A stretch of DNA of 64,000 nucleotides. It comes from Microthyrium microscopicum (Eukaryota). Made by a program: the position numbers and the translations under genes. The notes under the pieces are model-generated. The model was given only the letters and a program-made list of their open reading frames with translations. It did not search any database and had not been told where the DNA came from. Shown here in pieces: positions 13,141-42,741 of the stretch. The stretch's first letter is position 1, and every line of letters starts with the position of its first letter. The stretch is from positions 1,738,566 through 1,802,565 of the forward strand of contig MU004233.1 of NCBI GenBank assembly GCA_010405405.1, in the 5' to 3' direction.

Positions 13141-16100
13141 ATAGCCCTATACAAGTCTTATAATAAATAAAAGTAATTATAGTACCTACTGGCTTAATCT
13201 AGTATACTAATTAATTTAGATAAGTCTTTAGAATCTACTAATAATACCTTAGATGAAGAAGAAGCATCCATAAGAAATATAAGTAACTCTAGATAGTACT
13301 AATCTAAAGAGCAAGACGACAAGGATTTAGATAAACTATTTAAAGTAAAAAGCCTTAATATTAAACAAAATAACTATAATAAAATAGAGAATCCTTACTC
13401 TTTAGTAAGTCCTAATGAAATAAATACCTTAGAAAGTAAGAACGTATCTAACGTTAAGAATATATTAAAGTCTACTAACGAAGAAGATATCTTTAACTAG
13501 GCGCCTATAAAACTTCCTCGTAATTTAGTTTTGGAAATAGAAGAGATAAAGTTACAAAATAATGAAAACATTATACTTAACGTAGTTGTAAAGTACTATA
13601 ATAATTAGTATAGCGAATAAGGTTAGTAGTTTCTCGTACTTTGAGTTATAATATATTTCTTAATATTTTAATACCCTAGCTAACTATTATATTAGAGAAA
13701 ATAGTTAATATTCTTAAACTAGATCCTAAATATACTTTTAGTATAGTTCCTAAAAAGGTATTAGAATAGCTAAAAGATAATAAAGCAGGTAGGCTAAAGG
13801 ATACTACTAGACTATAGTTAGGTAGTATTAATTATAACTACTTTTGTTATAATATACCCTCTTAGTGTTAAACTAAATAGTATAACGAAAATGCTAAAAT
13901 AGCTAAGGCTTAAATCGTTAAGATATATCCTAATAATATCTTTATAAACTCTAAAGAATAATTCCCTATAGATATCGCTAGTAAATTAGATTAGGATAAG
14001 CTACTAAAATAATATATAAAAGATAGTCGTAGAAAAGAGAATAGCTATAACAAAGCTCTAATAATATATTCGTAGGGATTATTATAGAATTGTAAGGAAG
14101 TTAAATTAACTATAGTACTTTATATTAATCCTTTAGATTTAGATATTCTTTAGGAGTTTATACTCCTATATAGTAAGTAGTATTGCGTAATAAGAAGGAG
14201 GCAAATACTAACTATGCTATTAGTATAGTATAATAAGTAGATGTACGCTTTTTTATATAACTACCTTATCTATAAATTATTAAGCTAAATTAAACTAAAT
14301 AGGGGACTAAAGTCTCTTATTAAATAGCTCCTAATACTTAAAATTAACTCTAAAGACTAATACTATAAATAGGTAATAGGCAATAAGGATAATAAGATTA
14401 TAGTGCCTCTATTTAGATAAAATAAGCAAAATAGTAAAGAGGATAAAGTTAATAACCTTATAACTTTTGCTTGTATTATTTATAAGCTAATAATCTTATT
14501 TCTAGGCATATTTATTAAATGTTAACCTATAGACTCTAAAGAGCCTTGTAATATAAATAGAGTAAAGTATCTACTTAGTTATATAGTTACTAACTAGTAG
14601 CGTAGTTATATCTTAATCGTTTACATAGTAGACTAGGTTAGAAACGCTCTAGTATACAAATTTTTAAACGTTATTAACAAAAGACTAACGCTCTTTTATA
14701 ATAAGAAGAATAAGGAATAGCTTAGATTATTAATACTTTATAACCTTTTAAATAATAAGGCATAGGCTATTATATTTAGTATATTCTTTAATTTTACTTA
14801 GCATAGTAATAAGGCTCTTTAAGCTACTAAGGTAGCTAAAAGTTATTAAGAGTACTTTGTTATAAAGGAGATGAAATTTAAGAAATATAAAGAAGCGTAT
14901 AAAGATATAACGAACGGAAAAGCTAGATCTAAAAAGCGATTCGTTAAGAATGTTAACTATATTAACTCTATAGACAAAATTTTTTTAGCTTAGAAAAGAC
15001 TTAAAGTAATTAATACCTAAAATGTTTAGCGTTTCTAGTATATAGTAATACTAATAACAGAGCCTTAGCCTTTTAACTTTATAGTACAGACTTATAATAA
15101 ATACTATAAGTATAAAGTTCTAGAGTTCTTTAGAGTTATTAGTAGTAAGAGCTATAATAAAGATAGGGAATTTCCTAGTTTTAGTAAGTATAAAACTTAG
15201 AAGCAACTAACTCTACTATCCTATACTATTAAACTTAATAAATAGAAGATTAACTAACGTATACATAAAGAACTTAAAGTAGAGCGTATATATACTAAAA
15301 GTTAAGGAAATAATGCATTTGCTATAAATATCTTAGATAATAACGTACCTAAGCGTTAAGAGATAATTAGTACTATAGTAGTAGAGTAGGAGAAGTTTAG
15401 TAATAATAAGATATTAAGCCATATATAACTATTTTAGGACTATATAACGGCTCTTAGCCTTAATTATCTTAGCCCAAATTATATTACGTTTGCTAAAGAG
15501 GGTGCTTGTTTAACTAATCCTTAGCTGTGCAAATTAAGCGTTATTAATATCTTTCCCTATCTAAAGAACGCTACTAATAAGCTATAGGTTCCTAATATTA
15601 TTAGTAAGTAGAATTTCTATATTAAAAGAATATTATATGCCCTTTAAAGCTAGCCTATAACTTTATATTATTTAGCGCTCTTTATTAGAAATACTAGCTA
15701 ATATATATAACTATATAGATGTAGATATTATTCTTCGTTTCTAGAACTTAGAGGTTATATTAGGAGTACTTACTAGCATTATAGGCGCTAGTAAGAGTTT
15801 AATAGCTCTTATTGCTATTTTCTAGGATATATAGCATAAATATAAAATATATAATAATTTACTATATAAAGAGAATAAGGACTAGTAACAGATTAACTAT
15901 AATAAGAAGGAGGTAGTAAACTATAGATTCTACCTAACTAAGGTTATAATGCTACTAAATTATATATATACTTAGATTAATAAAGTAATTAAATTAATCT
16001 CCTAATAGAAAAAGGAGAGCACTAATAATTTTAGTTATTTAAATTTTAAGGTTATACTTTAGTATAGCTAACCTTAATAAGACAAAGTATCTCTAGTACG

Positions 16101-19100
16101 TATCCTTAATAGTAGGCAAGAGAATATAGATAATTAGTATTATAAGACAGAAAATACTAATTTAGTAGCTATATATTAAATTATTCTCTTACTATTAAGA
16201 ACATTATAAGCTTACGTAATTTAGTTAATTATACCTAGTTAACCTCCTAAAATTAATACCCTAGGTTTCTATAACTATACCTTAAATAAGGTATATAGCA
16301 AAATAAAGAAGTAAATAGGAAAGGAGTAAGAGAAAGCTACGCTAGCTTAAAGCTAACAAAATATAGTCTTACCTAGCTCTAAGAACAACTCTTAGGCTTA
16401 ATCGCCACTATTTAATAATGTACGTATAGTTAATAGCTTTTTATAATAGCTTAATAAGGCTAAAGAAGATTTAGAGGAAGAGGACGTTAACATAGTTTTA
16501 GATAATAAAGACGATCTAGAGAAGACTAACTATCGTACAGAATATTACAAAATTCTAGACAAAATGGAGTTTATTTAGCTATTTAAGTATACTAAATTTA
16601 AACGCCTAGTCATTAATAAAAGTTATATAACTATAAAGAATAATATAAATTAGTTATATCGTAGTATATTAAAGTTTCCCTTTACTAAAAATCTTTTACA
16701 TAAGCTTTTTTTAATTACTAGGACGCTCTTTAAGACTTAAATAGAAGATAGGTTAGCGTTAGTAAAGCTATTAACTCCTTAGTAGGTAAAAGGTATTAAA
16801 TTTCCCTATTAGATTAATTAGGCTAATAAGAATAAAGTTATAAGATTCTAAATCTACTCTATGGAACTAATATAGGATCTATTTAATCCTACTTAGGACG
16901 ATAGAGAGGCAATAGGTAAGGATTTTGTCTAGATATTTAGTCCTAATAAGAATAATATAAATACTTAATTTAAGAGAGCTTATAAATAAGTATTTAATAT
17001 TAATAATAAGAAGAATAGCTTTAAGTAAAGTTATAAGATTAGCATTTAGCTATTACTACTTTTGCTAGAGTAGTTTATCTTTACTTACAAAAGCCTAAGT
17101 TAAAATAATAATATTACGTTATTTAGTAAGAAAATATTATTACTATTTTTGCACATAACGTATACTTATCGTACACTTAATAGCTAAGTAAGTAATAGTA
17201 AGCATACAATTATTCTAGGAGCTAATAAGCTATTATGTCTATAATAATAGATTGTTGTAGATTATATCAACTAGCGCAATTATTATATATATAACCATCT
17301 AGCTAACGTATACTAAGCTAAAGTTTTAGAATTAATTACGCAAGAAGATTAAGAACTAAATTAATTCGTAAAGATTTTAATAGATCTAAGTCTCTAGCGA
17401 TATAAGCTTGCTATGGCTTTATTACTTAGAAGTAGAAGATTACTATACGGTGTAAAGCTAAAGAAGAATTTCACTAACAAATTACACAAATTATTACGTA
17501 TAATAAAGAGCTTAAGCCTTACAGGTGTTAATTAGCTTAAATTAAGCTAGTCTGTAAGTCGTAAGTAGAAGAGTAGAACAACTATAAATTCCTTAACTAC
17601 TATTACTAGTCCTATAGGTAAGTATATTAATACTTTTTTAGAAAGTGGCTAAATATATAGTATTAATTAGTTATTCTTAGGTACCGTAGTTAAGTAAGGG
17701 CTTTATCTACCTAAGAGTTAGGTAAAGATTATAGAATTCCTATTTAATGACTCCTTAAAACTTGCTATACTTACCTATTTATATTAGGACATATAGAAAA
17801 ATAGCTGGAGTTTTAGTATAACTGTAATTAAAAAAGCCTAGACTAAACATTAACCTAAATCTAAAGTCTTAGCTTTCTTTAATAGTCTTAAAAACTAGGG
17901 CCAATTTAAGTCTTACTTTACTAACTTAGGGTTTAAATACTACTTTATCCATATAGAAAATATATAGGCGAAACGCCTTAAAATTATCTAGGAGTATTTA
18001 AACAATCCTAATATAACTAAGTTACTTATCCCTTACGCTAGTTGCTTAATAGAGTTAAATAGCCTCTAAAATAAAAAAGGTAAGTTTAATATAGTTTTAT
18101 TAAGCTTTATAACTAGCATTAATATAGATTAGTCCTAGGCTATTACTTAACTCTTTTATATTAGCTAAGAAAAGATAGTTTATATTTAGTAAGTCCTTCT
18201 TAATAACTTAATTAATACTTCCTTAGAGTATAGCGCTACGAAGAAGATTAGTTTAGTATAGCTTACTAAGCTAAGTGCCTCTAGCTTTATGTTAAAATTT
18301 AATAATATACTAGCATATAAGAAGCTAGCCTAGTTTAAGAACTAGTAACAGAAGAAGGATAGGTTAATTATTTTCTTAAACTATAATTAATATTCTTAGG
18401 ATAAGCTTAAGATTATAAACTTTTATAGATATTATCTAGCCTACAAAGTCTTAACCAAAGTAGGTAACATTAGTAATTAGTCTTAGCTATTAGATAACGA
18501 GAGATTTTAATACTTGTATAATATATAATATAAGTAGGCCTTATATTTTTGTATTAAGATAGCTTACGCTATTTAGTAAACTATTACTAAATCTAATTCT
18601 AATAAGCGATTAGCTACTTATAAGATATTAAAGAAGTCTATACGTACTTATAAGTAAAAGCGTAATGTTAAAGACTCTAATCATAATAAGAAGACAAAGA
18701 TAGCTTATAATGTAGTAGTAGATAACGAAGCAGCATTAGAGGAAGAGACTTTTAATAATAAAGGATCTAAAGATTTAGATAGAGAGTCTTCTAATAGAGA
18801 AGGGTCTAATAGTAAAGGACCTAATAAATTAGATAGAGAGTCTTCTTATAATAAAGGGTCTAATAGTAAAGGACCTAATAAATTAGATAGAGAGTTATCT
18901 TATAATAAAGGGTCTAATAATAATTCTACCAATAAGTCTAATAGTAAGTTAGTAATATCTAATAATATAGCTATGCCTTAGGGCATAAGCTAGGATGGCT
19001 TTAGAAAGATTCCTTTAATAAAGCTAAGCTTATTAAGACTGCTTCTACTTACTCTTACAGACTTTTGAGATTTTATAAGTAATAATAAAAAGCGATAAGG

Positions 19101-20100
19101 TAACTTAACAAAATATAAAGATATACTAGGAATAGTAGGCCTTAATAATAGTTCTCTAATTTATTATAGGTATAACTACCTAGAGTACTATTAGAAATAG
19201 CTTAGAGCTAAGATAATTTATAGTCTTAATGAAATTGTTAGCTACTTAATAGATGATAGTTTGCTATTATAAGAAAAGCGCATAGATATAGCCTAGGCAG
19301 CTAAGAAAAGTAGTAAGGATATTACCTTTAGTAGGCTAGTAGTACTAGACTTAATAGTTAAATAGATCATTAGTTATATTAAGAAAGAAATAGGAGCATT
19401 AGACCTATATATACTAGATAATAAACTTAAATAAGAGGAAGCTAAAGAGCATAGCTATACTAGCGTAGAAAACCCTATTAATAATTATACTATAAATATT
19501 AACGTTTTAGAAGACGACTCTAACTATACACTAATTAATATAGAAGGTTAAGGAGTAACAACTTTAGTAGGAGCTAAGTCTATAAGCTAAGACATTGCCT
19601 TAGCATTAGTACTATAGTTAACATTACTTCTATAGGAGGACATAATAGTAAAAACTATTAAACGTGTTAAAGTAGACGTTAATAACTATAGTCTACTAGC
19701 TTTATCTCGCTATAGAAGTTAGAGCTATAGTTTAATAATATCTATAATGCGTTACAATTCTTATAGATCTACACGTTTGGCGTTACTTAGATTCACTAGT
19801 TAGCAAGTTAGTAAACATATATTAGCGCTACTAGCATTTATTCTAGAAAGCACCTTAAGTACTAAGTAGGTTTAGCATACTAGCAATTTTGACTTAGATA
19901 TTTTAATAAATATAGCGTCTACTACTAATTTACAATTAGCCTCTCGTAAAAAGAGCTAGAAGAGCTTAAAGTACTAAGTTTTTTTATTAGGGCGTAGGTT
20001 ACTCTAAGTAAGTAGGCTATTAGAGGCAGGTAGGATTTTAGCTAAGATAATATAACGAATAATGTTTTTCTATAGCTAAATAGAGCGTATTTATTTAAAT
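13141..20100 (+). pseudogene. SNF2/SWI2-family SF2 ATPase pseudogene with long N- and C-terminal extensions
   Basis: Walker A GVLTSIIGASKS (~15763-15798; …MGAGKS). Motif II KRLVINKSYITIKN (~16600-16640; RLVIDESH..IKN). Motif III FLITRTLF (~16710; LITGTPF). Motif IV KVLAFF (~17863). Motif VI *AIT*LFYIS*EKIVYI* (~18136-18190; QAIARLFRIGQEK.VHIW). Order and spacing match SNF2_N plus Helicase_C. Confidence 0.9.
18760..18925 (+). repeat. 54-bp (18-codon) tandem repeat x3 in the acidic tail of the SNF2 relic
   Basis: GATAGAGAG at 18778, 18832 and 18886. Confidence 0.9.
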
Positions 20101-21010
20101 AATATTATAAAATATTAGGGTAAAGAATTATATACTAATTACTTAGTAATAAGGTAAAAGAGTATTAGATAGATAAATTATAGTCTTCTAGCTGCCTTAC
20201 AAAATAAAGTCCTTTTATAATAAAAAGTACTTTATTATAGTAATAGGTTATACTAGAATCGTCCTACCTAGAATTACTATTACTTTATATATACCTAGGT
20301 AAGGTTATCTACTTACTAATAGTCTATTATATAGACCTTAATAAAGCACTACCTATTAATAAAGTTAAAGTTACTTTAAGCCTCTAAAAAAATAAGTAAT
20401 AATATAATAATGCTATTTTAGTTCGTATTATAGTAAAGCTATAATTATACATAATAAGTAAGACAATTTCTAGTTTAAAGTCATAAAGCACCTACCTTAC
20501 TAAGGCTACTTAATATAGTATTTATTATAAGTAGGTACCTATATATAACATAAGTAAAGATAAGTAAGATAATAATAGAGTAGTTTAGACTTATACTTAC
20601 TATACAATTAGAATATTTTTAATACTAAATAATACTAATTACTATTACTATTTAATCAAAATTACTATATACTTAGTAGAGGCGTTAATACTAAAGGCTT
20701 ACTACTATATTTATAGCGAAAATAGTTAAGTGAAGTTAGAGTATAAGTATTAGATCTCTATAGTACCTCTACTATAGATTATAGCTAGCGTACTTAGACT
20801 ACTTAGGCAACTAAGTATTTATCTCCTACGTTAGTACTATAAAATATATATTTAAAATATTAGGTAATATACTTAGGCTAGAAAAGTAGAATAGTAATCC
20901 TATATATATAGTATTATTATATAGCTACTTTAGCTAATAAATTATCTCTAAGTAGGTATATAGGTATATAGGTATCTATTAAGTATATATTATGCTTATT
21001 ACCATTATAT

Positions 21011-21143
21011 TAGGTTAAAATTATAATAGCTAGGAATATAACGTATAGAGAAGGAGATTAGGATCCTATGCTTAAAGGTAAGCTTACTAAGCCTTAAGCA
21101 TTAGAGGGGACTAAGCGTACCTAGAGATAAGCTTATAGCTTAG
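21011..21143 (+). repeat. Dispersed ~130-bp repeat, copy 1 (copy 2 at 42608-42741)
   Basis: GGAGATTAGGATCCTATGCTTAAAGGTAAGCTTACTAAGCCTTAAGCATTAGAGGGGACTAAGCGTACCTAGAGATAAGCTT aligns with 42650 onward. Confidence 0.85.
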
Positions 21144-21949
21144 CATATTTATAAAAAGGGATAATTTAATTTTACGTCTTAACTAAATATAATATTAATA
21201 TTAAGTTAGTATAAATTATTATAGATATATAGGTACGTAGGTAAGTAGGTACGTTGCATAAAAGTAGATAGATATATTTAGTATAGCATCTACTATACCC
21301 TAAAAATAAGCAATATATAGAGCCTTTAGCCATCCTATAGGTATATTTAATATACTTAACTTAGATAAGCGTATTATATTTTAATAGCTTGTAGTAAGCT
21401 ATCTTCTCTTCTAACTATTGTTTTACAGCTAGCTTATTAAACTTAAAATTATATAATAGCATAATTATAAAGCTTACTAGTTTTAGATTAGAGCTAGTTC
21501 TTATCTTAGACGCTATCCTCTTTTGTATAGTATATACTTAGGATTATAGTTTAAGTATAAATATATATAGTATTCTCTCTAATACGCTTAACTAGGTACT
21601 TAGTTTTAGAGTTATTCCTATATAACCTATAATATTTGCTTTCTAAACTACTAGTCTCCTTCTTAACTAATCTATACTATTTTTATTCTATCTTTATTAC
21701 CTTCTTGTCTATACTAGAAATAATACTATACATAGTTCCTAAATCTAAATCTAATTTCCATATACGTAGTTTGTTAGCACTATTAACTACGTATAACTAT
21801 ACTTTTAGTACTTACTCCTCGTAGTACAAACCTTATAGTTAGTAGTTCCACCTATTACTAAGATGCTATTATTACTACCTACGTTAGTAGTATAATATAC
21901 TCTTAGGTAATAGTTACTATACTAACCTTGTTACAATTACTTAATTTAG

Positions 21950-22560
21950 TAGACTTAATAACACGTAGTGTCCAAGGGAGCTAAGCTTATTAAGCATTCA
22001 ACGCAATCTTATCTTATTTAAGGCTATAATAACTAAGGACTAGCGCTATACTAAAAATTCTAATATGTTGTAATATTAATAGGAACTTAAATTTATTAAG
22101 TAATTAGACGACCTAGCTTATACATTTAAGGAAGTTATTCTCTACAAACTAAAAGAACTAAATAAGTGCCTATATAATAAGTTGCTAGATAAGCTTATAA
22201 GCTCGTCGTGTAATAGCTATACGTTATAGAAGCAAAAGTTAGACCGCTACTTAGCTATAAAGGGTATATAGAATATAGTATTTACTAGTAATAAGATATA
22301 TTAGAGGAAGCTACCTTTAGCGTAACGTCCTATACAAGAATACTTAAATACTTACGTCTATAACTTCTTAAATTAATTCTATAAGCAATACCTATTAATA
22401 AACTATACTTATATAAGTAGTAAGCTAGGGCACATATAGTACGTCTCCAACTAGATTTATTAGGCATTAGAGGATAGGAAGTTTAAATAGGTTACCCCTA
22501 AATAGCTAGTATATAGGTAGTTATTCTATTTACTTAGGTAGTTATTATATTATTAGATTT
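21950..22560 (+). pseudogene. RIP-degenerated coding relic, product unknown
   Basis: Protein-like frame (ELKFIK*LDDLAYTFKEVILYKLKELNKCLYNKLLDKL…). Confidence 0.3.
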
Positions 22561-23599
22561 AATTAGTAGAAATATTATACACGTTACTCTATAACTATAT
22601 ACTAGCAGACCTAAGAATAAAACAAGATTAGGTTATATTTAGCCTTAGCTAATATCTTACTCTAGAAATAAAGTTATTTATATACTAAGTATAATACGAT
22701 ATATACTATTAATATTAGAATATAGGGTTAAGATATTACCCAGACTATTTTACCTAATAAAAAGTTAGCTAGACCTATATAATTAGCAAGAGTACATAAT
22801 GCTAACTAGCTTACCTATATTTAAATTTATCCGTAGTTACTACATTTACTAACAGACAAAAAAACCTACATATATTAATATATACATTAAATTTTTAATT
22901 AATATAATGTCTATTACAGTATTATCGCTTTTACATACCTATAGCAGGTACCTACTTTATGCTTCAAGATATAAATAATTAGTACTACTACTACTTACAA
23001 AACTTCTAGTTACTTACTACTAGCTACTGCTACTAGAGGGGAGGATACACCTAATAATAATAGTTACATATTAGAACATAAAATTTAAACTACGCTACAA
23101 CTTAAAGGAAATAAAGCTATATATTCTTAGCTAAATTAACGATTAACTACTTACTAAGTTAGTAAGTACCTAAAGTACCCTATCTATAGCGTTACTTAAA
23201 TTTTGATTACTAACTCTTTACTATTAGCATATACGTAGTTTGACTATAATATAGGGTTATAATACTTAGTTAACTACGTAATGTATTAAAACACAACCTA
23301 CTTAGACTATAAGGTATACTTACTTTTAATTAATACTAACCTATATACTTATATTTATATACTAGTTATCTATATTATATCTACCTTTATTAGGAGTTCG
23401 TTATTACAATTTAATTAAGTAAAGAGTTATACAAGTTTAGATAGTTCGTTTCTTCCTTTTATATTACGTTATTTTATACTAACTATATATTATTAGTTAA
23501 TAGTTACTACTAAACATAATACTATAAAGCTACTCCCTCTTCTAGTCTTCTACTTTCTATTACCCTTTTTAACTACAGTAGACTATTTATTATATTTAT

Positions 23600-27479: not shown

Positions 27480-28430
27480 TTATTACTTATAAGGAAAGAA
27501 TTAGCAACTATAGATAACAAAGTATCCTTTAACTATTATTATTATTAACTAATTATGCTAGCTTTATTTAATGTAGCTCTAATAGAGTTACTTTATTTAT
27601 AAACTCTACTACCTAGTTATTATGTTTAAGTCTATATATACACCTATACAGCATATAATAATAATCTTGTATTACTCTTAGTACTACAAATAATAGCATA
27701 GAGATTAAATATATAAACTTCTATATAACATTATATAGTAAGTTAATTACATTAATACGCTTATAAAATTAACTATCATTAAAGTCTACTATAATTAGAG
27801 GGTAGAAGGCTTAACTTAGCGTAATACTATTTAATATACTACTATTAGAAATTATAAGAATCCTTAAGTTCTATAACTAGTACTCCTTAAGGCTAAGTAG
27901 TTTTAGGGTTTAAAAGTCCTACGTTCTTACTAATAGTTCTATGCTATTAGTTATAAAGTTAGATATTATAACTTTTCATTCATCTAGTATAGTATATAGT
28001 TTAATAACTACAATTAGCGTATTCTAGAGTCCGCTACTCTTAATAAACCTAATATTAAGTAGACAAATTAGCTTAATAGAATATAAAGCTCTTATACAAG
28101 TTTTACTTACCTTCTAATTATAGTACTAGTTAAAAGAACAACTATATAGCAAAGCTAGTACTTAATATTATAAGCTCTTAGTATTATTTCTATAGCCTAT
28201 AGTAGGCTTGTTTAGATGCTATAGTTTATTCTAAGCAACGTATAGCTTATATTGGCCGCTAGGTTAGTATAACTTAACTTTTACTAATTACTTTGCTAGA
28301 ACTACTAATATAGACTTAAGCTAGTATATAGCTAATCGCTAATATTTGTTATTATTATCAAGAGGGTTAGACAATACTTTAATAATACTTTATTAAAATT
28401 ATATTATATTTAGTAAGTAACTAGGCATTC
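27480..28430 (-). pseudogene. Minus-strand intron-containing coding relic, product unknown
   Basis: GTAAGT…GCTAAT…TAG intron on the minus strand (~28110-28050), flanked by protein-like frames. Confidence 0.3.
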
Positions 28431-31400: not shown

Positions 31401-32778
31401 AACCTAATAGGAATTAATAAGGCTTTTAGCCTACTACTAAGGTAGTTAGTTTAGTTTAGTATAGAGGAGTTAAGACATAGTATAGTTAGAGTAAAATATT
31501 TAGTAAAAGGCTATATAGTCTAGAATATATAAGTTTATAATAATTTAAGGTATATTATTAAAACTATATAATTTATAAGCTACTAATATTACTAGAGAGC
31601 TAATTATTAGTATACTACAATGCTCTATCCTATAAAGGGAAAATACTAAATTAAGATTAAATATACAAGAGTAATATAATATAATTAGGCTAATAAGTCA
31701 GTAGGATTAACCGTTTTAGCGTCGTTAAAGCATTACTAATTTAGACTATAGCGTTAGTAAAGAGAGAGTTATACGCTAAAGATATATTCTATATTCCCTA
31801 GATAATAGTCTTGCCTTAAAAATTTAGAAACAAATATACTACTAGCGCACTAGGAAATTTTAGCTAGCAGCTAATAGTTCTATAGCTAAGAGTTAGGTAA
31901 TAGTAGCTAAAGTACTAGAAAAGGCATAGCAGCCTACCTATTTAGTTTTAAATAAGCCTTAACTAGCTAGGAACCCTTTCTACCCTATAGATTTAAAACT
32001 TATAGAACGCACAAGCTAGTTATAAGTAACTAGTGCCTAACTACCTCTCTTATAATATAGCTACATTATTTATATAGCATTAATATTATATAACGTAAAG
32101 AAGGCTAATTTAATAGAACAAGCTACTAAGTTAACTAGGTTAATATAGGTCAGCCTATATATAATAATTTAGTAAGAAAAAGGCAAACTTATTAATATTG
32201 CGCTCTATTAATTACGCGTTATTACGTAAGTAAGTAAGGCTTACTACTACTCTCTATTTTATATAGGTATATATAAGTATCTACTTTACTAATAGTAGAC
32301 TAGTTGCATTGTTTATAATCTACGTAGTATATAACTTAATAGGTAATAGAATAATATATTATAATAAGTATTTTTGCATTTAAGGTAACTAAATAAATTT
32401 ATATACTATTATTCTAACTCTTACAAATATAACTAGTTAATAATAGCTTATTATTTCTACGTTAACTTTTTGTTTAAAGTTTAATTCCTCTTATTAGTTA
32501 TAATATAAGTAAAGACGATTAAGTATAACATAAATAGGTTAATTAGGATTAAACGTTATATTAATAGCGCTACTATTTTAAATATTATCCTTACTAGGTA
32601 GGAATACTACTAAGCAGCTATAAGTACGTAACTTGTCTTAGACTATTAACTTTTAAAGTACGCGTTGTTTTAATATTTACTTAACTACTATTTTATATAC
32701 CTTTATAATAATAAGATAGTATATTAATTAGTACGTAGTCTAGACGCTATATTTCTAATAGTATTTAGGTTTTACTAC

Positions 32779-33278
32779 TAAATAAATAATATTAACACCC
32801 TATTGCTATCCTAGTATCTACTAATCTTATAGCTTTAAATTTTATATATTAAAATACTAGCTTTATAGCTATCCTTAGCAATAAATTAGAGCATTAATTA
32901 GTAATGTATTAATTAATATAATACGCAAAGAATATTTAGGTACTACTAGCTTAGAATAGTTAGGGATTTTAATATAATTAGTCCTCTAGTTATTTTAATA
33001 TACCTAAGTATAATAACGTAGTAAGGCATAGGCCGTTAGATAGTTAGTCCTTATAGTATTTTTAAGGAATATAGTATAGTTAAGTATAGAACTTAAATAA
33101 ATATTATTAACGCCCTATTACTATCCTAGTATCTACTAATCTTATAGCCTTAAATCTTATACATTAAAATACTAGCTTTGTAGCTATCTTTAGTAGTAAA
33201 CTAGAGTATTAATTAGTAATATATTAATTAATATAATACGTAAAAAATATTTAGGTACTACTAGCCTAAAATAGTTAG
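32779..33278. repeat. Direct duplication of ~185 bp (32779-32963 and 33094-33278), offset 315 bp
   Basis: CCCTATT(G/A)CTATCCTAGTATCTACTAATCTTATAGC…AGGTACTACTAGC occurs twice, differing mainly by transitions. Confidence 0.92.
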
Positions 33279-33593
33279 TATAGTTTAGTATAGATAATAG
33301 CTATAATATAATATATTAGGGCTAACACTACCCTAGATAGATAAAGGATAAAGTATACCTTATATAGAATTATTAAATTATTAAGGAAAGGTTAGGAAAT
33401 ATATAAAAGCTCTAGCTACGTACGTACTTACTAATTTGTCTTTAATTATTAACCATTCTTAAAGCTCTTTAAGATTAATATCTTATTTTATTATTTACTA
33501 CCTACTTACTAATTTCGTCTCTACTATTTTATTTCTACCTTATTAATTAAGGTCTTTCTTATAAGTAATTTACCCTTTCTTAATATATTTAAT

Positions 33594-36500
33594 ATGTTTT
33601 TAGTTAAATTTAACAAAGCCTTTACCTATTTAGTAAAGTATTAAGTTATTATCTATAAATAATATTATTGTACTATCATTCCTTTAGTAGTATATGAGCA
33701 TCTTTAATTAGCCTATGTCTTAAAACTTACTCCTAAAGTGTAAAAGCATATTAGTAAGCATATTAAGAGAATGTCTAACTTAGCAATACAACTAAATAAA
33801 GTTGTTTTTCCTCTTATTATTAAACTATTAATTCGCTAACTTAATGCCCCTAAAGCTAATAAATTTAAATATAAATACCTAACCGTAAATAATAACCTAG
33901 ATAGTTAACTATTTATTTATAATTATATAGGTAGTACTAAACGTACTATACATATATACTTTAAGAAATAATATTAATAGAGCAACCCTAGACGCTATAG
34001 CTAACTATTAGCTAGCATAGAAGATAAAGTAAAGGATATATTCTAGAATAGTAATATTTACTACTAGTCATTTTTTAAACCTAGCAAATAGTAGAGATAC
34101 TTTATTATTATGCCTATTTCTAATTAAGATACGCTTAAAACTTCTTATACTACTACTAAGCTACTATTTATAAGGACTATTATAGATAGGCAAAAAGTAT
34201 TTAAAGATAAGTAGGAAGAGGCTTTATAAGCGTAAGCAGTAGTTAACGCCTAGCCAAAGAGCTAATTCAAGTTAAATACGTAGCTTAGACGTACTAAGTA
34301 GACTTAACATTTTAATAGATTTAAATTATTCTAGTTAATTAGTCTAGCTTAAGAACCCAACATAGCTAAAGTTATTTTGATTAAAGCATACAAAGTAATT
34401 AAGAATATTATATAGGCATCTATAAAATATACAAAGCAAGCTAGTAAGAACATAATAATACTACTTAAGAATAAGGAATTTAGTAGTAGGCTAGTTATCT
34501 TTTACGCTAGACATAAAAGTAATACTATTATTACCTATAGTAAGAATTAGAAATCTATATTTTGCTACATTTAGAGAACTTAGCAGTTATTACCTAATAA
34601 GCCTAAGTCTATTAAAAAAGATAACTACGCTAATACTTAAAAATGCTATTCTCCTTATTAGCTAATATCCTCCTAGGAGAAGCTACTTTATAGCCTTAAG
34701 TCTTTACTTAGTAATAGTTATGTATCTAATCCTAATATTAACTTAGAGTCTAGCTAGGAGAATATTCTATACTAAACTATATTAAACTTTTAGATTTTTC
34801 TTCTAGATAATTAAATTAAGAATAATAACTTTTAAAGCGCACTAGTTAGTAGGCTTGCTATACTTAGAGTTCATAAGTAAAATAGTAGCTAGACGTTAGT
34901 ATAATATTATACGTTACGCTTTTTTGCTATTATAATAATCGCGCGTATACTTATATACTATAAAGCTATAGAGATTTATTAGCATAATATTTAAATTGTT
35001 ATAAAAGATAGAGGCATCAGCTAAGTGTAGGCTAAAGAACTCTAAATTATACTAGAAACTAGGACTAAAGTACAACAAATATATAGAAAGTTTATAATAG
35101 TTGTAACCTTTAATAGCTAGCTAAGCCTAATAAACTATATTCTTTATCTATAGAGCTATAGTATAGTAGCTAGTTAAAATACTAATTAGGCTAAGTTTAT
35201 TAAATAGGATAGGGATAAGCTCCTATTTAGCCTAATATTATTTAGTATAAGTTAGTATTACTCTATAGTTTATAGGACACTAGATTCTTATTAGTATATA
35301 CTATATTAGGATATCTTATTATTACTACTTAATTATATAGCTAATAACTCTCTTAAGCTACTAGTTGAGTTATTTAGAGAACTACTATTAATCTTATAGA
35401 ATGCCTTACAAGACGACTACTTGGAGACTAAAATTAGCTAGAATTTCTTAAATAACCTAGCTAATAAGATAAGTATTAATAGAAGAAGCTAGCTCTTTTA
35501 ACGCATTATATAAACTTTAAAACTATACAAATTCTTTATTAATATTAGTAATTTTAAGGACGTAGATAGATCTTTAGGTAGCCTAACTATAACCTTAATT
35601 AGTCTTAATAGATCTTTTAGATAGAACATTGCTTACTTTACTAAGTACCTAAGAGCTATTTAGAAATTTAAAGAAATACTTTTAATATTAATTTATATTA
35701 CCTCTAGTGCCCTAGCTAGAAGTATAGAACTTATTTTTGTATAATACGTTAATAGTGCTACTAAGGATTATAGAATTTTTATACATAAAAATACTCTAGT
35801 CTTTTTAACTAGATACTATAAAAATATAGCTAAGAGTAGCTAGGCTAAACTTATATATTAATATCTTAGTTAAGAGGTAGTAAGCCTATTAGTTTATTAT
35901 CTCTAGCTTATACTACCCTTTTAGGAAACTATTAAGGTTTTATACAACTAGCTTCTATTTAATAACCTATATATCTAAAAGCCTTAAGAAGAAGCCAAGA
36001 AGCAACGTACATAGACACAACAGCAAGCTTCTAACAAGAGGACTTACTAGCAATATTTAAGCAATAATAACAATTCCAATAGTAATAAAGATAGCCAAGA
36101 TAGCGCAGCCTTAAATCTATCTAGTAACAGCAAACCTTCATTATCTTTGTTACAAAGTTTCTCTTAGTCTAATACTTCCTTAGGTTCATCTACTATAAAT
36201 ACCTAAGAAACGTACTTTAAAAGGGTTAAGAGTTTACTTTTTTAGTTTATAAACAACTTATACTCTACTTTATAAATACACTATATTATAATTAAGCTAT
36301 TTACTAAGTAGACTAGGCGTCTTATTAATATACAAAAATAGAAGTATATAGCTATTACTATTACTCATCAAAAGCTTATATTTTACCCTAGAGATGCTAA
36401 AAAGTTAATAAAGTATATCTACCTACAAAATTACGAACTAGATACTATAGAAAGCGATCCAATAGACCTTTAAGCTATACACACTACTAAGACGGCTAAA

Positions 36501-39280
36501 GGCATCTATACTAGACATACATCTAACTATCCTAAAGCAGTTATGTTACATATAGCTAACTTCTATTATATAAGTACTTAATAGCATGCCCTAGGTAGAC
36601 TTAGTAGTTACGTAACACTATAATATAATGCGACTAAGCTACTACTAGTCATCTAGCTAGTATATCTCTAGTTACTCTAATCGCATAGCTAACATAAATA
36701 AGCCTCCCGCTAGCAATAACAATCGCTATTAGACTTACAGGACGAATTACAATTATTATTGCATTCTAAAGACGCAATCTTCCGTAGTAATTAAGAGTAT
36801 GTACTAAAAGATGTGCTTACTTAAAAGAGTTTAATTCTATATATAATAGGAATAAGTAGTAGTAAGAGTTTAAGTTTTATGCTCCTAGTATACTCTATTA
36901 GAGAAGTTATAGTAGTTATTATACTTCTTATCTCTCTATGCTAAGATTTATTTAAGCGATATATATTAGCTAGGATTAACTATATTAAGTAGAGCTATAC
37001 TTATCTATAAGACTAAGCTTTAATTGTTCTAGTTACGCCTAAGATAGTAATATCTATAGCGTTTTAATTTTTTCTTAATTATTAACGTATTCTTAGTCGC
37101 CTAGACTATATTATTATTAATAAGTATTACGTTATACTTAAGGCTAGAAATAAAGACAACTTATAGAGAAAAGTATACCTATTACTTAATAAGTTAGTAA
37201 CTCTTAAGGTCTAGTTACTTTATCTTACTATAACTCTCTTACCTAGTTAAATAGAGGAATTTAAGCACTTTATTAGCCTTTAAAGTTCTAATATTCTACT
37301 ATATAAATAAAGAGAGTCTACATAGTAGTCAAACATTAAGTATTAAGAAATTATATATTAACTAGAATAGTAGGACGACATAGTAGCTTAAATAGTTAAT
37401 AAGTTACTTAAGTGTTTTAAAATTGGCACTATACTTATTTACTACGATATAGTTGCTATAGCTAAATAACTAGAGAATCTTCTTAGCTATCTTACCTACT
37501 ATAAGAATATTAGTAATACCTAAGTTAAGTAGCATATTATATAGTAGCTACATAATAGCGAAAAATCTATCTATACTATAACTTCTATAGCTAGATTGGG
37601 TCTTTACCTACCTAATATTTAGGCTATTCTCTATATTAGTATTATAGTTAATATAATAGCTTAGCTATAAGAAAGTAGCTATAAAGATAGAGATAGCTAG
37701 CTTTGTCTATCTATAGTTATTTACGTAATATATAGCTATATAGGACGCCTAAAGCAAATAAGCTAATATCTTAAAAATTATTAGAAAGGTTCTTAGAAGA
37801 TAGATTAACTCTTAATAGATTTATTTTTCTTAATAAATAAATATTACAAACAATATATTATAGGTAGCTATATTGACGGCTTTTAGAACATTAGAATTTA
37901 GTATAGATTAGGTAAAGACGTTCTATATAGCTAATGCTAGCTTAAATAGACTATTACTAATATTAATAAAGAGTTTTAATAGGTTAGCTAATAATAGAAA
38001 CATAAGATAGATAACGAAGATTCTACTTCTAGTATAATAGTATTAGATTATATACATAATACTAAGACTAATATTAGTAAGTTAGTTCTTATATCTAATT
38101 CCTACTACTATAGTAGCATCTTCCTTTATAAGATAAATACTAACTACTATGCCTTAAATAGTTATATAATAGTATCTAGATAATAGTCTTAATAGCTTAG
38201 AAGATTTCTACGTAGTTAACTCTCTAGTTCTTAGTCTAGATTAGCTAAGATATAGTTACTATGCTCCTCTAGTTATACCTATAATTTTAGAACTAACTTA
38301 CTCTGAACCCTCTAGCTCTAACGATTCTAAATTAGATAGCTTTAAGACTAATACTATACTAGACTTATTATCTAGCCTACTAGTATCTATAGCGTAGCTT
38401 AGGCTAAACGAAAGTAATTAAGCATTGTTTTGTTATCTTACTTAGCATAATATACCTTATAAATTACTACTAATACTAGGCTTATTATTTTTATAATCCT
38501 TAAAGACTTTGCTACTTAGTTGTTCTTTTCTAGTTATCTTACTTATATTCTTTCTATTAACTATATTATTATATACTAGCTTTAAATTTATAAGACTTAT
38601 ATTATTACTTAGTTTTAATACTATAACTATTATAAATATATACTAAGATTTTAGTAGTAGTAATCTAAAGCTAGATATGCTTAATTTTTAAATTACCTAA
38701 GAAAAGACTAAGGCTACTAAATAACACTTAAGCTAGCTATATTAGCAAAGCGTAAAGGATAGTAGCCTTTACTATAAGTTAATAAGTTAGCGTCTACATA
38801 ATTAGGCAAATAGTTACTTACTTTACTATCTCTTTAGCAAACCCTTATATAATAATTATACTTTAAAGAGCTATAATAAATTTAGGATTTCCTAGGTCTA
38901 TGCCTTTATTAAAAAGATTAGCTCTATTAAATAGGAAGATTATAGTAGATACTAACGTTGCTAAGTTTCTTAATATTTTTATAACAAGTAGGAGCTAAAC
39001 TAATTATAAAGCTATAAGTTCTAAAAAACTAGTACTAATAAAGAATATTAGTATTAGTAGCTATTATCTATAGTATGTGCTACTATACTAACGTTAAAAT
39101 AGGAAAAGGTTTATAAATAGTTAGTAGGTAAGATAATTAGTAATAATACTCTATAAACTCTTAATATTAATCTAATAGAAACGGAAATATAGAACTAGTT
39201 AGGATAGAAAGTTAAGATAGATAATAAGCTAGAAACGTCTAAGATAGCTATAATATTTATATAGTTTACTTCTTAAGTAG
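33594..39280 (+). pseudogene. DUF3505 Zn-finger + tyrosine-recombinase-like region + RecQ helicase fusion (telomere-linked-helicase-like), RIP-inactivated
   Basis: ATG at 33594: MFLVKFNKAFTYLVKY*VIIYK*YYCTIIP…YEHL (VICKQCHC…HL). LIYITSSALARSIEL (~35690-35732; HITSGAPARGTEL). RecQ motifs: FRSN*E…IGISSSKSLSFMLL (36780-36888; FRG.Q…MGTGGGKSLSFMLP), LDYIIINKYY (37101-37130; LDRIVIDECH), LTITLLP (LTATLPP), GLYLPNI, *ESSYKDRD (QESGR.GRD). A Zn motif (…YIDG…C..C) and a C-terminal YSGC..C….FCNKW follow. Confidence 0.92.
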
Positions 39281-39799
39281 TAGTTTATAGCTAATATTAT
39301 AATTATTATCTATTATTTATTATTATTGCCTAGTATTTAAATACTTAATAATACTTAGACTACGTAATATTATATATAGTATCTTGTATTTTTTATTATA
39401 GAGCCTAAATAAAATATAAAATAGGCAAGTTTTACTAGTATATATACTTATAATATTTAGGAGACTCTATAATATTTATAAACTATCTTTACGCGTCTCT
39501 ATAATAATAATAAAGGCTATATTTATATTTTAAAAAGCTATATAGTTAATAAGTTTTCTATACTTCTTCTTATCTTTTTCTTATTTCTTCCTCTCTCTCT
39601 CTTTTTTTCTTTTCCTAGATAAATATACCTACCCTATCTAAATATTATCTTCTCTTCTTTAGCACTAGGGGTTAGTATATATTTAATATACTAAGCTATT
39701 AACTAAAGCTAAGTATTATAGTACCGTAATATCTTTAGCTAATTACTAGTATTTATATAAATACTTATAGAAAACTAGCTAAAGATAGAAGTAATATAC

Positions 39800-42420
39800 T
39801 ATATAGTGGATTACTACTCGTTCTAAGTCTACTATTATCTTTAGGCGTATTTACTTTGCGCTATTTATACTACTATATTTAGAAGGATTATATTTCTACC
39901 TAAAAGGACTTAAAGAATAAGTATAATACAGCGAATAATATAAGGGAGACTAGCTATAGCATCCTTAATTAGGATATTTCATAACCTACTACTAACAACA
40001 AACTATATAGCCTTACTAAAGATAACTTTAGAAATAATTTTAATCTTAAAGACATAGAAGAGGCCAGCCATAGCATCCCTAATTAGGATATTTCGCAACC
40101 TACTACTAACAACGAACTATATAGCCTTACTAAAGATAACTTTAAAGATAATTTCAAACTTAAAGACATAAAAGAAGCTAGCCATAGCATCCCTAATTAG
40201 GATATTTCACAACCTGCTACTAATAACGAACTATATAGCCTTACTAAAGATAACTTTAGAGATAATTTTAATCTTAAAAATATAGAAGAGGCTAGCTAAG
40301 GCCTTTAGACTTAAGACATTTTGTAAACTACTAGTAACGAACTATATAGCCTTACTAAAGATAAATTTAAAGATAATTTTAATCTTAAAGATATAGAAGA
40401 AGCTAGCTAAGACATTTAGGATTTAGACATTTCGCAACCCACTAATAATAAACTATATAGCTTTACTAAAAATAATTTTAAGGACGACGTTAACCTTAAT
40501 AAGGACGTAGATAAAGCTAGCTAAAGCCTTTAGAATCTAGATATTTTATAAATAGCTATTAATAAATTGCTATATTATTATAATAAAGAGGATTTTAAAG
40601 ATATTAATAATATAAGCTTAGCTAAGCAAGAGATTCAAACATTAGATCTTACTTAACTTAGTAGTTAAGACGTATATTTACTATATTTAAGTACTAGTTC
40701 TAATACGCCTATTCTATAGTCTTCTTTGCCTTTATATAAGCAAATTTCTTTAGACATTAATACTACTTCTATTAACTTTACTATAATAAATATTAACCTA
40801 AAACCTATTTAAGGCAATACTTTGCTTACCTAGGATAATATTAATATAGATATTAATACTAAGAAAAAGAATAATACTATATAGGTTTATTAAATCTTCT
40901 TAAGCCCTAAGTAGTAAGTAATTCTTAATTAAGTTATAGACTAAAGCAAAAGTATTTTTTTTATAGAATTTGTTAGTATTAGTAAGTCTGTCCTACTTTA
41001 AGAAATTATTACTAGGCTCTAAAGTAAGTATAAAAGCTAGAATAATTTTGTTATTATTATAGCTTTAACGGGACTTATAGCTTGTAATATTAGAAGAATA
41101 ACTCTTTATAGTTTTGCTAGTATTAGCCTTAGAAAGAGATCTTTAGAGGAATACATTAAGAGTATAGCTATATCTACTTAGGAAAGGTAAGCAAAAGTAA
41201 GAGTTTTTATTATTAATAAGATATCTATAATTAATAGTAATCTCTTTAATAAGATTAAATATATTACTTAGTTAAAGAAGCAGAGCAATCTTTCTTTTAG
41301 AAGTATATAGCTTATAATTACTAATAATTTCTTCTAGTTATCCCTAGTACTAGAAGCAGGAGAGTAATTAAAGTTTGCTTTTAATACTTAGACTTAAAAT
41401 TTATGCCTTCTAAATACTATTACTCTTTACAAGGTATTTAGATAATAAGATCTAGGTATATATATCTACTATTTTCTTAGACTACTTACTACTATTTAAA
41501 ATAGCTTTTAATAGATAACTAGAATTCGCTAGCATGCTTAATTAACTACGTAAAGACTATACTAATACCTTTTTAATTAAGGTTTTCTAGAGCCTTAATA
41601 GAAACCTTAATTTTCCTAATAGCATAGAGCCTACTAAGCTATTTCTAACTTATTTAGAAGTTACGTAGGCTAATTATATATAACTAGCTAGTCTAAGTAG
41701 AGGCAGCTATATATTTCTAGCTAAAGATAGTAGCCGTATTTCTATAGACATACGCTAGAAACTACTCTTTAACTTAATAGTATAATCGTAAATTACTATT
41801 AAGGTTAGTACTTAAGTTATACTTATAAAGAATTTAAATAATATACTTATTAATAGTAGTATTAGAAAGGTTATTACGTTTATAATAGCATTAGAGTAGG
41901 TTAAGAATATAGCAAATAGTAAGTTAAACTTATTATCCTAAGCCTTAGTTAAACTTACATCTTAGGTCTATCCTAAAGAGATAGTTATTAGTTGTACTTA
42001 GAGCTATCTAATAGATCCTAACGCAATATACCTATTAGTATAATTTTCTTTTATAAATAGTATAAGCTAGAACTACTACTATTAGCCTAAACTCTAGAAG
42101 ATTAAGCTACTAAATAGCTAATTCTAGGCATCTTGGCTATAAGTTCCTCTAATTTTAGCTTAGTCGTTATCTATTTATAAAGTATAAGGCTAGACCCTAG
42201 ATTAGGTAAAGGTAGATCTTACTTAGATTTTTAAGCAAGGCTAAGCGTATATAGCTCTTAGTTGCGTAACTAGTATAGCAAGATTACAAGTTATAGGATT
42301 TTATAATACTATAATAATAGTTTATAAGTCAGTTTAAGAGTTTTACGTAGGTTTATTAGATATAGTAGCAGCTAAACCTAATAATGCTCTATATACTTTA
42401 CTATTAAAATTATTAGTAAG
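39800..42420 (+). pseudogene. PIF1: PIF1-family (SF1B) DNA helicase pseudogene with a 67-nt intron (41456-41522)
   Basis: SKSIFFIEFVSISKSVLL*EII (GKSVFFTGSAGTGKSVLLREII, ~40945-41010). ALTGLIACNIRRITLYSFASISLR (ASTGLAACNIGG.TLHSFAGIGLG). IINKISII (IDEISMI). PFGGIQL…GDFFQLPPV relic. R**DL^EFASMLN*LR spans a GT..AG intron. VPLILA*SLSIYKV*G*TLD…G*AYIALSCVTS (AWSLSIHKAQGQTL…GQAYVALSRATS). Confidence 0.95.
39949..40625 (+). repeat. 114-bp (38-codon) tandem repeat, ~6 copies, in frame with the PIF1 helicase domain
   Basis: Units start at 39949, 40063, 40177, 40291, 40402 and 40516. De-RIPed consensus is about ASHSIPDWDISQPATDNELYSLTEDDFGDDFDLEDMEE. Confidence 0.92.
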
Positions 42421-42607: not shown

Positions 42608-42741
42608 TAGGCTAAAACTATACTAGTAATTAGTGTAATATATAGAATAGGAGATTAGGACCTTATACTTATAGGCGAGCTTACTAAGCCCTAAGCGCTA
42701 GAAAGGAACTAAGCGTACTTAGAGGTAAGCTTACAACCTAG
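42608..42741 (+). repeat. Dispersed ~130-bp repeat, copy 2 (copy 1 at 21011-21143)
   Basis: GGAGATTAGGACCTTATACTTATAGGCGAGCTTACTAAGCCCTAAGCGCTAGAAAGGAACTAAGCGTACTTAGAGGTAAGCTT. Confidence 0.85.

What the first reader, a model, noticed from the sequence alone, without database searches (positions are those of the whole stretch)
13141..42420. Three different helicase families (SNF2, RecQ, PIF1) co-oriented within 30 kb
Seen: all three are on the + strand and all are RIPed; RecQ and PIF1 are only ~0.5 kb apart. Established: RecQ and PIF1 translocate in opposite directions (3'-5' vs 5'-3'), and SNF2 ATPases remodel chromatin. Inference: this could be an element-encoded toolkit for replication, recombination and chromatin access, which is not a normal fungal core-gene neighbourhood.
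Basis: partly seen in the sequence, partly recalled or inferred. Interest (0 to 1): 0.75.

Follow-up and report, generated by a model that had tools for sequence, protein, structure and literature searches.

The report
Dead recombinase-helicase block with extra helicases
A mutation-wrecked stretch of a fungal chromosome holds a telomere-type recombinase-helicase gene beside a captured copy of the host's PIF1 helicase and an odd SNF2 motor gene; intact relatives show similar pairings, hinting that these elements collect DNA-copying genes to spread, though one single mobile element is not shown.

Summary
Confirmed: three RIP-killed + strand genes, SNF2-like (13.2-19.9 kb), RecQ (33.5-39.3 kb) and PIF1 (39.9-42.4 kb), contiguous and single-copy in a Dothideomycete genome. 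The RecQ is not SGS1 but a telomere-linked-helicase (TLH) type OrsD-tyrosine recombinase-RecQ fusion; an intact relative's middle domain folds like Xer/Cre (Z 9.4). The PIF1 is an old copy of the host's core PIF1 (same intron; host best of 122). The SNF2 has no close host paralog. The pairings recur: of 48 metagenome loci, one has an intact TLH-type gene directly followed by a PIF1, another by a SNF2-type gene; both partners are non-orthologous to ours, and no locus has all three. A 90-140 bp repeat found only in this island follows SNF2, PIF1 and a dead Pol12 gene, so the block looks modular. No termini or captain were found; one element is unproven. Best reading: a TLH-type block that captured DNA-metabolism genes, plausibly for recombination-driven copying (BIR). 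The scan has noted the TLH recombinase fold many times, and TLH+SNF2 elsewhere; the three-helicase set, PIF1 capture and cassette-like repeat are new here.

The parts
13210..19990 (+). RIP-killed SNF2-like ATPase gene, about 2,000 codons in three coding blocks (13210-13605, 13650-15506, 15688-about 19.5-20.0 kb); long N-terminal part of no known family
   Evidence: coding-potential map; profile hits; only database relative is a 156-aa Microthyrium microscopicum fragment, 44% over 107 aa; no host paralog of the N-terminal exon
15763..15846 (+). SNF2 motif I (Walker A) region, tentative
   Evidence: best local hit of the profile's motif I lands here but is not significant alone (51 of 300 shuffles as high)
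16444..16749 (+). SNF2 N-lobe, motifs II-III
   Evidence: 37.3 bits, top hit in the island
17857..18267 (+). SNF2 C-lobe, motifs IV-VI
   Evidence: 29.5 bits, same frame, collinear; z 7.4 with host ORF L042
21011..21168 (+). Repeat R, copy 1, about 1 kb after the SNF2 gene
   Evidence: 77-79% identical to copies 2 and 3; exactly three copies in the island
33543..39300 (+). RIP-killed TLH-type gene: OrsD/DUF3505 zinc region, tyrosine-recombinase-fold domain, RecQ helicase, C-terminal Cys-rich part
   Evidence: 430 bits to intact L083; Pfam OrsD+DEAD+Helicase_C on 4 of 5 intact homologs, the fifth lacking OrsD; 52% RIP-compatible residues vs 18% shuffled
35685..36620 (+). Tyrosine-recombinase-like domain of the TLH gene; end approximate
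   Evidence: alignment to L083; R, K, R, H, Y invariant in 22 homologous domains; model of the L083 domain matches Xer, Cre and integrases, Z 9.4, rmsd 3.4 over 152 residues
36735..37721 (+). RecQ helicase core, motifs I-VI in order
   Evidence: no hit of 30 bits or more with host RecQ-family ORFs
39877..42390 (+). RIP-killed PIF1, a diverged copy of the host-lineage core PIF1; intron 41456-41522 at the host position and phase
39950..40552 (+). 114-bp (38-codon) tandem repeat in frame in the PIF1 N-terminus, amplified from an acidic stretch of the host PIF1 N-terminus
   Evidence: 35.9 bits to host residues 179-258, 0 of 200 shuffles as high
42608..42745 (+). Repeat R, copy 2, about 220 bp after PIF1 (copy 3 lies outside the window at about 72,164-72,274, about 350 bp after a dead Pol12 gene)
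8600..10269 (+). 89-bp tandem array with an assembly gap; shares a core motif, inverted, with the array at 58.3-59.4 kb; possible boundary, not shown
   Evidence: no terminal repeat beyond the arrays
58335..59405 (-). 116-bp tandem array with the same core motif in inverted orientation

Best explanation
The window is part of a RIP-killed, modular block built around a TLH-family gene: an OrsD-tyrosine recombinase-RecQ fusion of the kind that sits at this genome's chromosome ends, but of a separate lineage. The block captured intron-bearing DNA-metabolism genes: an old copy of the host-lineage PIF1 0.6 kb downstream, a divergent SNF2-type translocase upstream and, 30 kb further right, a Pol12 copy. 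Shown: gene identities, the recombinase fold of the family, PIF1's host origin, recurrence of TLH+PIF1 and TLH+SNF2 pairs, and repeat R after three cargo genes. Inferred: the block was once duplicated (hence full RIP of single-copy DNA) and spread by recombination. The recombinase would nick or exchange strands at a target, the fused RecQ would extend the joint, PIF1 (with Pol alpha/Pol12) would drive break-induced-replication-type copying onto another chromosome end or site, and the SNF2 motor would help strand invasion or clear nucleosomes. RecQ+PIF1 is the tight unit; SNF2 is a neighbouring module of the same block.
For: TLH identity and recombinase fold. Intact L115: TLH-type gene followed on the same strand by PIF1 (tblastn E 3e-37 to 9e-23). 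Intact L080: TLH-type gene followed about 1 kb later by a SNF2-type gene (HMM E 2e-12; Pfam SNF2 + Helicase_C). That is 2 of 48 loci, and 2 of about 7 distinct lineages with 3 kb or more of DNA beyond the gene. No multicopy transposon piece was found inside 10.5-43 kb (loose search). CpA and TpG depletion are alike over SNF2, spacer, TLH and PIF1 (CpA o/e 0.31-0.40, TpG 0.16-0.22), and 1-82 kb shares a milder, TpG-biased RIP than the saturated flanks. R is private to this island and follows three genes. Whole duplicated giant elements are RIPed, often strand-specifically (PMC10104507, passages). Pif1 acts in BIR and telomerase-null survival (PMC7073672, passages).
Against: No termini, TSD or second copy found. 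No locus holds all three genes. The L115 PIF1 (28% to core orthologs) and the L080 SNF2 (z 0.9 against the relic) are not orthologs of ours, so the pairs are convergent, not a conserved operon. 5 of about 7 informative lineages have no second helicase family. The 13.6-kb spacer has little coding signal. PIF1 and SNF2-like genes are common in transposon-rich fungal DNA (recalled), so chance adjacency is not negligible. Function of any of the proteins is untested.
Confidence: 0.5

Rival explanations
1. Unrelated captures and insertions piled up in a subtelomere-like, AT-rich graveyard. TLH and PIF1 may be one unit, but SNF2 arrived on its own (for example as an X3-like SNF2 repeat), and the set is no toolkit.
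For: The left flank (-12.6 to -4.3 kb) is this genome's shared subtelomere core, 84-92% identical to the ends of C14, C8 and C4-left, followed by a 2,860-N gap at the window start. A RIPed multi-copy cluster with Rad5/SNF2-like helicases is described in Stagonospora nodorum (X3X3R8; PMC3017866, passages). At the true C4 telomere a different, weakly supported SNF2 relic lies 28 kb from a TLH. R separates SNF2 from TLH.
Against: Uniform RIP signature and no detected transposon boundary between the genes; the private repeat R is shared by the SNF2, PIF1 and Pol12 neighbourhoods; tight intact pairs in L080 and L115.
Confidence: 0.27
2. The genes are cargo of one Starship of about 80 kb (window about 0-82 kb) whose DUF3435 captain is erased or lies in a gap; the TLH recombinase is a passenger.
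For: Size, single copy, strand-biased RIP over 1-82 kb, as reported for duplicated Starships (PMC10104507).
Against: No DUF3435 match in the genome (weak, since the same kind of search missed the RIPed PIF1); no DUF3723, FRE, PLP or NLR seen; 'helicase' does not occur in the main text of PMC9156397; no terminal repeats.
Confidence: 0.15
3. An old segmental duplicate of an ordinary host region, later RIPed.
For: PIF1 keeps the host intron and N-terminus; a Pol12 copy lies nearby.
Against: Host PIF1 is on C5 and no DNA similarity to a core region was found; fourfold sites show 19 of 56 and 27 of 69 transversions; TLH is not a core gene; the SNF2 has no close host paralog.
Confidence: 0.04
4. A remnant of an endogenous DNA virus or plasmid with its own helicases.
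For: Large DNA viruses encode SNF2-, PIF1- and RecQ-like helicases (recalled).
Against: Spliceosomal intron at the host position in PIF1; no TLH-type motif or relative in viral or prokaryotic collections; no capsid or polymerase gene seen.
Confidence: 0.02

Closest known systems
Telomere-linked helicase (TLH) genes and TLH-containing regions (Magnaporthe oryzae, Fusarium oxysporum, S. pombe tlh1)
   Same: C2H2/OrsD region + TLH domain + RecQ in one gene (bioRxiv 10.1101/2024.02.27.582403, passages); AT-rich setting with tandem-repeat arrays like the HARs (PMC1635262, passages); same subfamily as this genome's telomeric copies on C14 and C4-left.
   Different: Lies 1.77 Mb into scaffold C4 (with a gap and subtelomere core to its left); only patchy DNA similarity (70% over 125-167 bp) to the telomeric copies, which are 92% alike; carries PIF1 directly downstream and SNF2 upstream; 'pif1' and 'snf2' do not occur in the Fusarium TLH paper.
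X3X3R8 repeat family of Stagonospora nodorum (Hane and Oliver 2010, PMC3017866)
   Same: RIPed multi-gene repeat with Rad5/SNF2-like helicases and another DNA-repair gene, in a Dothideomycete that also has RIPed telomere RecQ repeats (passages).
   Different: There the helicases are tandem SNF2 copies with Rad6, and RecQ is a separate family (X26); homology of our SNF2 to X3 was not tested.
Starships (DUF3435 captain)
   Same: Giant, tyrosine-recombinase-associated, cargo-bearing, RIP-sensitive.
   Different: The recombinase here is the TLH domain fused to RecQ in the middle of the block, not a 5-prime DUF3435 captain; no termini found.
Helitrons (Rep-PIF1) and AcademH (RecQ-like helicase + transposase)
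   Same: Fungal transposons that carry a PIF1 or RecQ-type helicase; Helitrons capture genes.
   Different: The PIF1 is core-type, with no Rep/HUH domain seen in front of it; the RecQ is fused to a recombinase fold, with no DDE transposase seen beside it.
Yeast Y-prime element (recalled; also PMC4522978 passages)
   Same: Subtelomeric helicase-bearing unit that spreads by recombination.
   Different: One helicase, no recombinase domain, no captured replication genes.

Membership tests
TLH gene family | N-terminal C2H2/OrsD region | tested here: met
   alignments to L083 and L102 start at 33,609-33,612 within their OrsD domains; host OrsD ORF maps weakly (20.8 bits) to 33543-33896
TLH gene family | TLH domain upstream of the helicase | tested here: met
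   alignment; invariant residues
TLH gene family | RecQ motifs I-VI | tested here: met
TLH gene family | Adjacent to a telomere | tested here: inconclusive
   internal on scaffold C4, no telomere array nearby, but subtelomere core and a gap lie directly left of the window: possible mis-join or fusion
TLH-containing region of this genome | Near-identical copies at several chromosome ends | tested here: not met
   single copy; telomeric copies are 92% alike, this one is not
Tyrosine recombinase superfamily | Catalytic-domain fold | tested here: met
   on intact homolog L083, not on the relic: the top 15 of 48,161 chains are recombinases, integrases, topoisomerase IB or kin; best Z 9.4; model pLDDT 66
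Tyrosine recombinase superfamily | Catalytic R-K-(H)xxR-H-Y set | tested here: met
   R69, K104, R237, H279, Y288 invariant in 22 of 22 rows; relic alignable and RIP-compatible at the first R, last H and Y
Tyrosine recombinase superfamily | DNA cleavage and rejoining activity | not testable with these tools
   needs assay
Starship | DUF3435 captain at the 5-prime end | tested here: inconclusive
   no match in the genome, but RIP blunts this search (one search missed the PIF1 relic)
Starship | Terminal repeats and empty site | tested here: inconclusive
   none found; no other strain available
Helitron | Rep/HUH domain fused to a Helitron-type PIF1 | tested here: not met
   relic is core-type PIF1 with a host-like N-terminus and intron
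Core fungal PIF1 | Orthology-level similarity and gene structure | tested here: met
   77% and 67% RIP-compatible residues vs 18-19% shuffled; shared intron; host best of 122 proteins (the set was chosen by similarity to the host)
SNF2 ATPases | Two lobes with motifs I-VI in order | tested here: met
   chain 66.8 vs at most 41.4 bits in 8 shuffles; motif I alone not significant
SNF2 ATPases | Subfamily (chromatin remodeller vs Rad5/Rad54-like) | tested here: inconclusive
   best of 22 queries only 30.7 bits
X3X3R8 family | Homology to the S. nodorum X3 helicases and a linked Rad6 | not tested
   sequences not in hand

The most novel reading that the evidence does not exclude
TLH-type genes are the engines of an unrecognised class of fungal mobile element. 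Their recombinase-RecQ fusion both moves the element and adds gene cassettes, integron-like, at a short site (repeat R, which has an imperfect inverted repeat with an inner direct repeat), and the cassettes are chosen from the break-induced-replication machinery (PIF1, Pol12, a SNF2 translocase), giving a self-copying block that spreads between chromosome ends.
Probability: 0.15. Interest if true: 0.85.

Novelty: new variant of a known kind. Interest (0 to 1): 0.52.

Why it matters
What TLH genes do and why they sit at chromosome ends is open. If their recombinase-RecQ fusion repeatedly recruits PIF1 or SNF2 partners, that points to a mechanism (recombinase-started, BIR-type copying) and makes TLH regions selfish elements, not host telomere factors. 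It is directly testable with the intact loci found here. If the adjacency is chance, this is an ordinary RIP graveyard with a few captured genes.

Tried and rejected
Direct database searches with the RIPed proteins mostly failed: word search with the TLH relic, 0 hits; Pfam hit only PIF1 among 8 X-read segments; PDB, 0 hits for the SNF2 C-lobe; the 1.84-billion-protein search gave 1 fragment, and a search for longer relatives of it found none. A reversed-sequence control for my RIP-aware aligner was invalid (scores inflated by composition) and was replaced by codon shuffles. A stop-density map was too noisy. No TLH-type relatives in viral or prokaryotic collections. R: no Rfam match at gathering score and only chance hits at E up to 10; no further copy in 127 other loci or by genome search; it also reads as a short peptide in all three copies, but not in frame with the upstream genes consistently, so a coding origin is not excluded. 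The C4-left SNF2 relic is only marginal (40.5 vs at most 38.1 bits in one frame), so I do not count it as a firm co-occurrence. The window SNF2 does not match that relic or L080's gene. Only the source sample holds this DNA, so no polymorphism test. The ESM Atlas could not be used on the stop-riddled gene. No phylogenetic tree was built; placement of PIF1 rests on RIP-aware scores. Literature searches listed no paper describing TLH with PIF1 or SNF2 partners; most subscription journals are not covered and supplements were not read.
Full report
Setting. The window is G000:C4:1738566-1802565 of a 37-Mb fungal genome. The host's core PIF1 is 74-79% identical to named Dothideomycete proteins. The whole window is RIPed and lies in an AT-rich island from about -42 kb to +101 kb in window coordinates, between ordinary gene-rich DNA. 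The left part of the island (-12.6 to -4.3 kb) is the genome's shared subtelomere core, also found near the ends of C14, C8 and C4 itself (related arrays on C3), and is followed by a 2,860-N gap at the window start. C4 has a true telomere at its position 1. The island may therefore be an internalised or mis-joined chromosome end; I could not decide. From 1 to 82 kb RIP is milder and biased (TpG more depleted than CpA), while the flanks are mostly saturated.

Method. Standard searches fail on these genes, so I wrote a local aligner that scores each observed codon against the residues it could have come from by C-to-T and G-to-A changes, with codon shuffles as control. Its bit scores are my own scale and are quoted only beside controls or for ranking.

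PIF1. The gene runs from about 39,880 to 42,390. It hits Pfam PIF1 and the host's core PIF1. It keeps the host's intron at the same position and phase (41456-41522), and its in-frame 114-bp repeat is an amplified piece of the host N-terminus. Among 120 core orthologs plus two host genes, the host PIF1 scores best (187.5 vs 177.3 bits; the set was picked by similarity to the host). Fourfold sites carry 19 of 56 and 27 of 69 transversions, so this is an old capture from the host lineage, not a recent copy and not a Helitron helicase.

RecQ. One frame from about 33,540 to 38,400, with a shifted C-terminus to about 39,300, encodes a TLH-type protein. A motif scan of metagenome contigs gave 48 loci. 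47 carry the motif in a TLH-like frame (46 listed, L111); L079 is a bacterial chance match. The best, L083 and L087, align along most of the relic (430 and 393 bits). Intact members have OrsD, DEAD and Helicase_C domains. Host RecQ-family genes give no hit of 30 bits. The middle domain has five invariant residues in the order R, K, R, H, Y, and the L083 model matches Xer, Cre and phage integrases (Z 9.4). This recombinase fold has been reported by earlier agents of the scan for other copies; my test agrees. The telomeric copies on C14 and C4-left belong to the same subfamily and are 92% alike, but the window copy shares only short 70% patches with them.

SNF2. Three coding blocks from 13,210 to about 19,900 hold collinear N- and C-lobe hits to a host SNF2 profile, 66.8 bits chained against at most 41.4 in 8 shuffles. 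No host gene is close (best 30.7 bits of 22 queries). The only relative among 1.84 billion representatives is a 156-aa Microthyrium microscopicum fragment. About 400 codons separate the lobes; a RING-type insert as in Rad5/Rad16 is my reading by eye and untested. The subfamily, and so any chromatin role, is unassigned.

Do they co-occur elsewhere? In L115 an intact TLH-type gene is followed on the same strand by an intron-rich PIF1; in L080 an intact TLH-type gene is followed about 1 kb later by a long SNF2-type gene. That is 2 of 48 loci, most of them too short to tell: 9 have 3 kb or more beyond the nominal gene end, which I group into about 7 lineages. Of 7 loci with 6 kb or more upstream, none has PIF1 or SNF2 there. 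Neither partner is orthologous to ours (L115 PIF1 28% to core orthologs; L080 SNF2 z 0.9), so the pairings arose independently. Other neighbours include a Tet/JBP-like gene below the Pfam cut-off, lying between two RecQ-type genes in L104 (E 0.0025 on its twin in L085). A weak SNF2 relic lies 28 kb from the TLH at the C4 telomere (marginal). No locus has all three.

One element or several? For one block: contigs of the source sample cover 13,000-33,000 continuously with no second copy at 80% likeness; no multicopy transposon piece was found between 10.5 and 43 kb; RIP indices are alike across the three genes and the spacer. Full RIP of single-copy DNA implies that the block was once duplicated (established RIP biology; shown for Starships in PMC10104507, passages). 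Against: no terminal repeats, TSD or captain, and a 13.6-kb spacer. A 90-140 bp repeat R occurs exactly three times, co-oriented: about 1 kb after SNF2, 220 bp after PIF1 and about 350 bp after a dead Pol12 gene at 70.4-71.8 kb (Pfam DPOA2_OB E 8e-26). It was not found in 127 other loci, among them the host PIF1 locus, and is no Rfam family. Read with RIP ambiguity, it has an 11-bp inverted repeat, six bases of which are a palindrome, around a short direct repeat; it also reads as a short peptide. R ties the three neighbourhoods together and also divides them into modules. Arrays with a shared core motif face inward at 8.6-10.2 and 58.3-59.4 kb, with further arrays at 82-83.4 and 99.7-100.4 kb; they may be boundaries, but nothing beyond them matches.

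How it most likely works. Shown: the parts and their relationships. Inferred: a TLH-type recombinase-RecQ fusion is the engine of a repeat block that spreads by recombination, and captured PIF1, Pol12 and a SNF2 translocase would suit break-induced-replication-type copying. Pif1's role in BIR and in telomerase-null survivors is from PMC7073672 (passages); Pol12's role in lagging-strand and telomere fill-in, and the role of SNF2-type motors in strand invasion, are recalled. I give this 0.5, independent accumulation in a subtelomere-like graveyard 0.27, Starship cargo 0.15.

Known systems. The TLH genes and their repeat arrays are described (10.1101/2024.02.27.582403 and PMC1635262, passages). 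A RIPed SNF2/Rad6 multigene repeat is described in S. nodorum (PMC3017866, passages). Starship definitions are from PMC9156397 (passages). PMC10799480, PMC12730594 and PMC4522978 were searched for terms only. Nine literature searches listed nothing on TLH genes with PIF1 or SNF2 partners; coverage is limited to open papers, and supplements were not read.

Verdict. This is a new variant of TLH-containing regions with captured replication and repair genes. The single-element toolkit is plausible but unproven, and the copy is dead. Interest 0.52.

Noticed in passing
window 8752-8945: About 200 bp captured from a host SNF2-family gene (C3:590499-590704, 74% identical), sitting at the start of the 89-bp tandem array.
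   Followed up: partly
window 21011-21168, 42608-42745 and L021:8164-8274 (about 72.2 kb): Repeat R, three co-oriented copies private to this island, each after a DNA-metabolism gene; imperfect inverted repeat; also readable as a short peptide.
   Followed up: partly
L021:6393-7810 (about 70.4-71.8 kb, right of the window): Dead Pol12 (DNA polymerase alpha subunit B) copy, + strand, in a stretch where RIP hit almost only G on the + strand.
   Followed up: partly
L019-L020 (window -12.6 to -4.3 kb) and the gap at -2859 to 0: Subtelomere core shared with several chromosome ends lies in the middle of C4, next to a gap; the right end of the island resembles the inner edge of the C8 subtelomere. 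C4 may be two chromosome ends joined.
   Followed up: partly
window 43199-44528 and 60624-64000 (continuing to 66.8 kb): Two pieces of one unidentified repeat family that lie together on C16 and C8; the second piece is in three tandem copies of about 1.9 kb.
   Followed up: partly
window 49367-50360: Ends match a multicopy MITE-like family found on at least five contigs; includes a 197-bp tandem repeat.
   Followed up: no
window 45800-48900 and 51400-52400: About 546-bp repeat in 4-5 copies, with related pieces at 51.5-52.4 kb; unexplained.
   Followed up: no
window 1527-1961, 4270-5250, 11376-12000, 22100-23300, 30900-32100: Weak + strand coding-like relics of unknown family; the three tested (11.4, 22.1, 30.9 kb) had no convincing match at three chromosome ends.
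   Followed up: partly
window 32778-33278: 185-bp direct duplication just upstream of the TLH gene, in the place where Magnaporthe has helicase-associated repeats.
   Followed up: no
L104:10397-11473, L085:6063-7139: Tet/JBP-like dioxygenase gene (below the Pfam cut-off) next to TLH-type genes; L087 and L104 each hold two TLH- or RecQ-type genes in tandem.
   Followed up: partly
L103:5006-7306, also L078, L089, L112: A conserved gene of no Pfam family directly downstream of one TLH subfamily; its motifs look like a 2-oxoglutarate/Fe dioxygenase (recalled resemblance, untested).
   Followed up: no
L010 (C3:40759-40998): Un-RIPed OrsD fragment at the inner edge of the C3 subtelomeric AT block.
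   Followed up: partly
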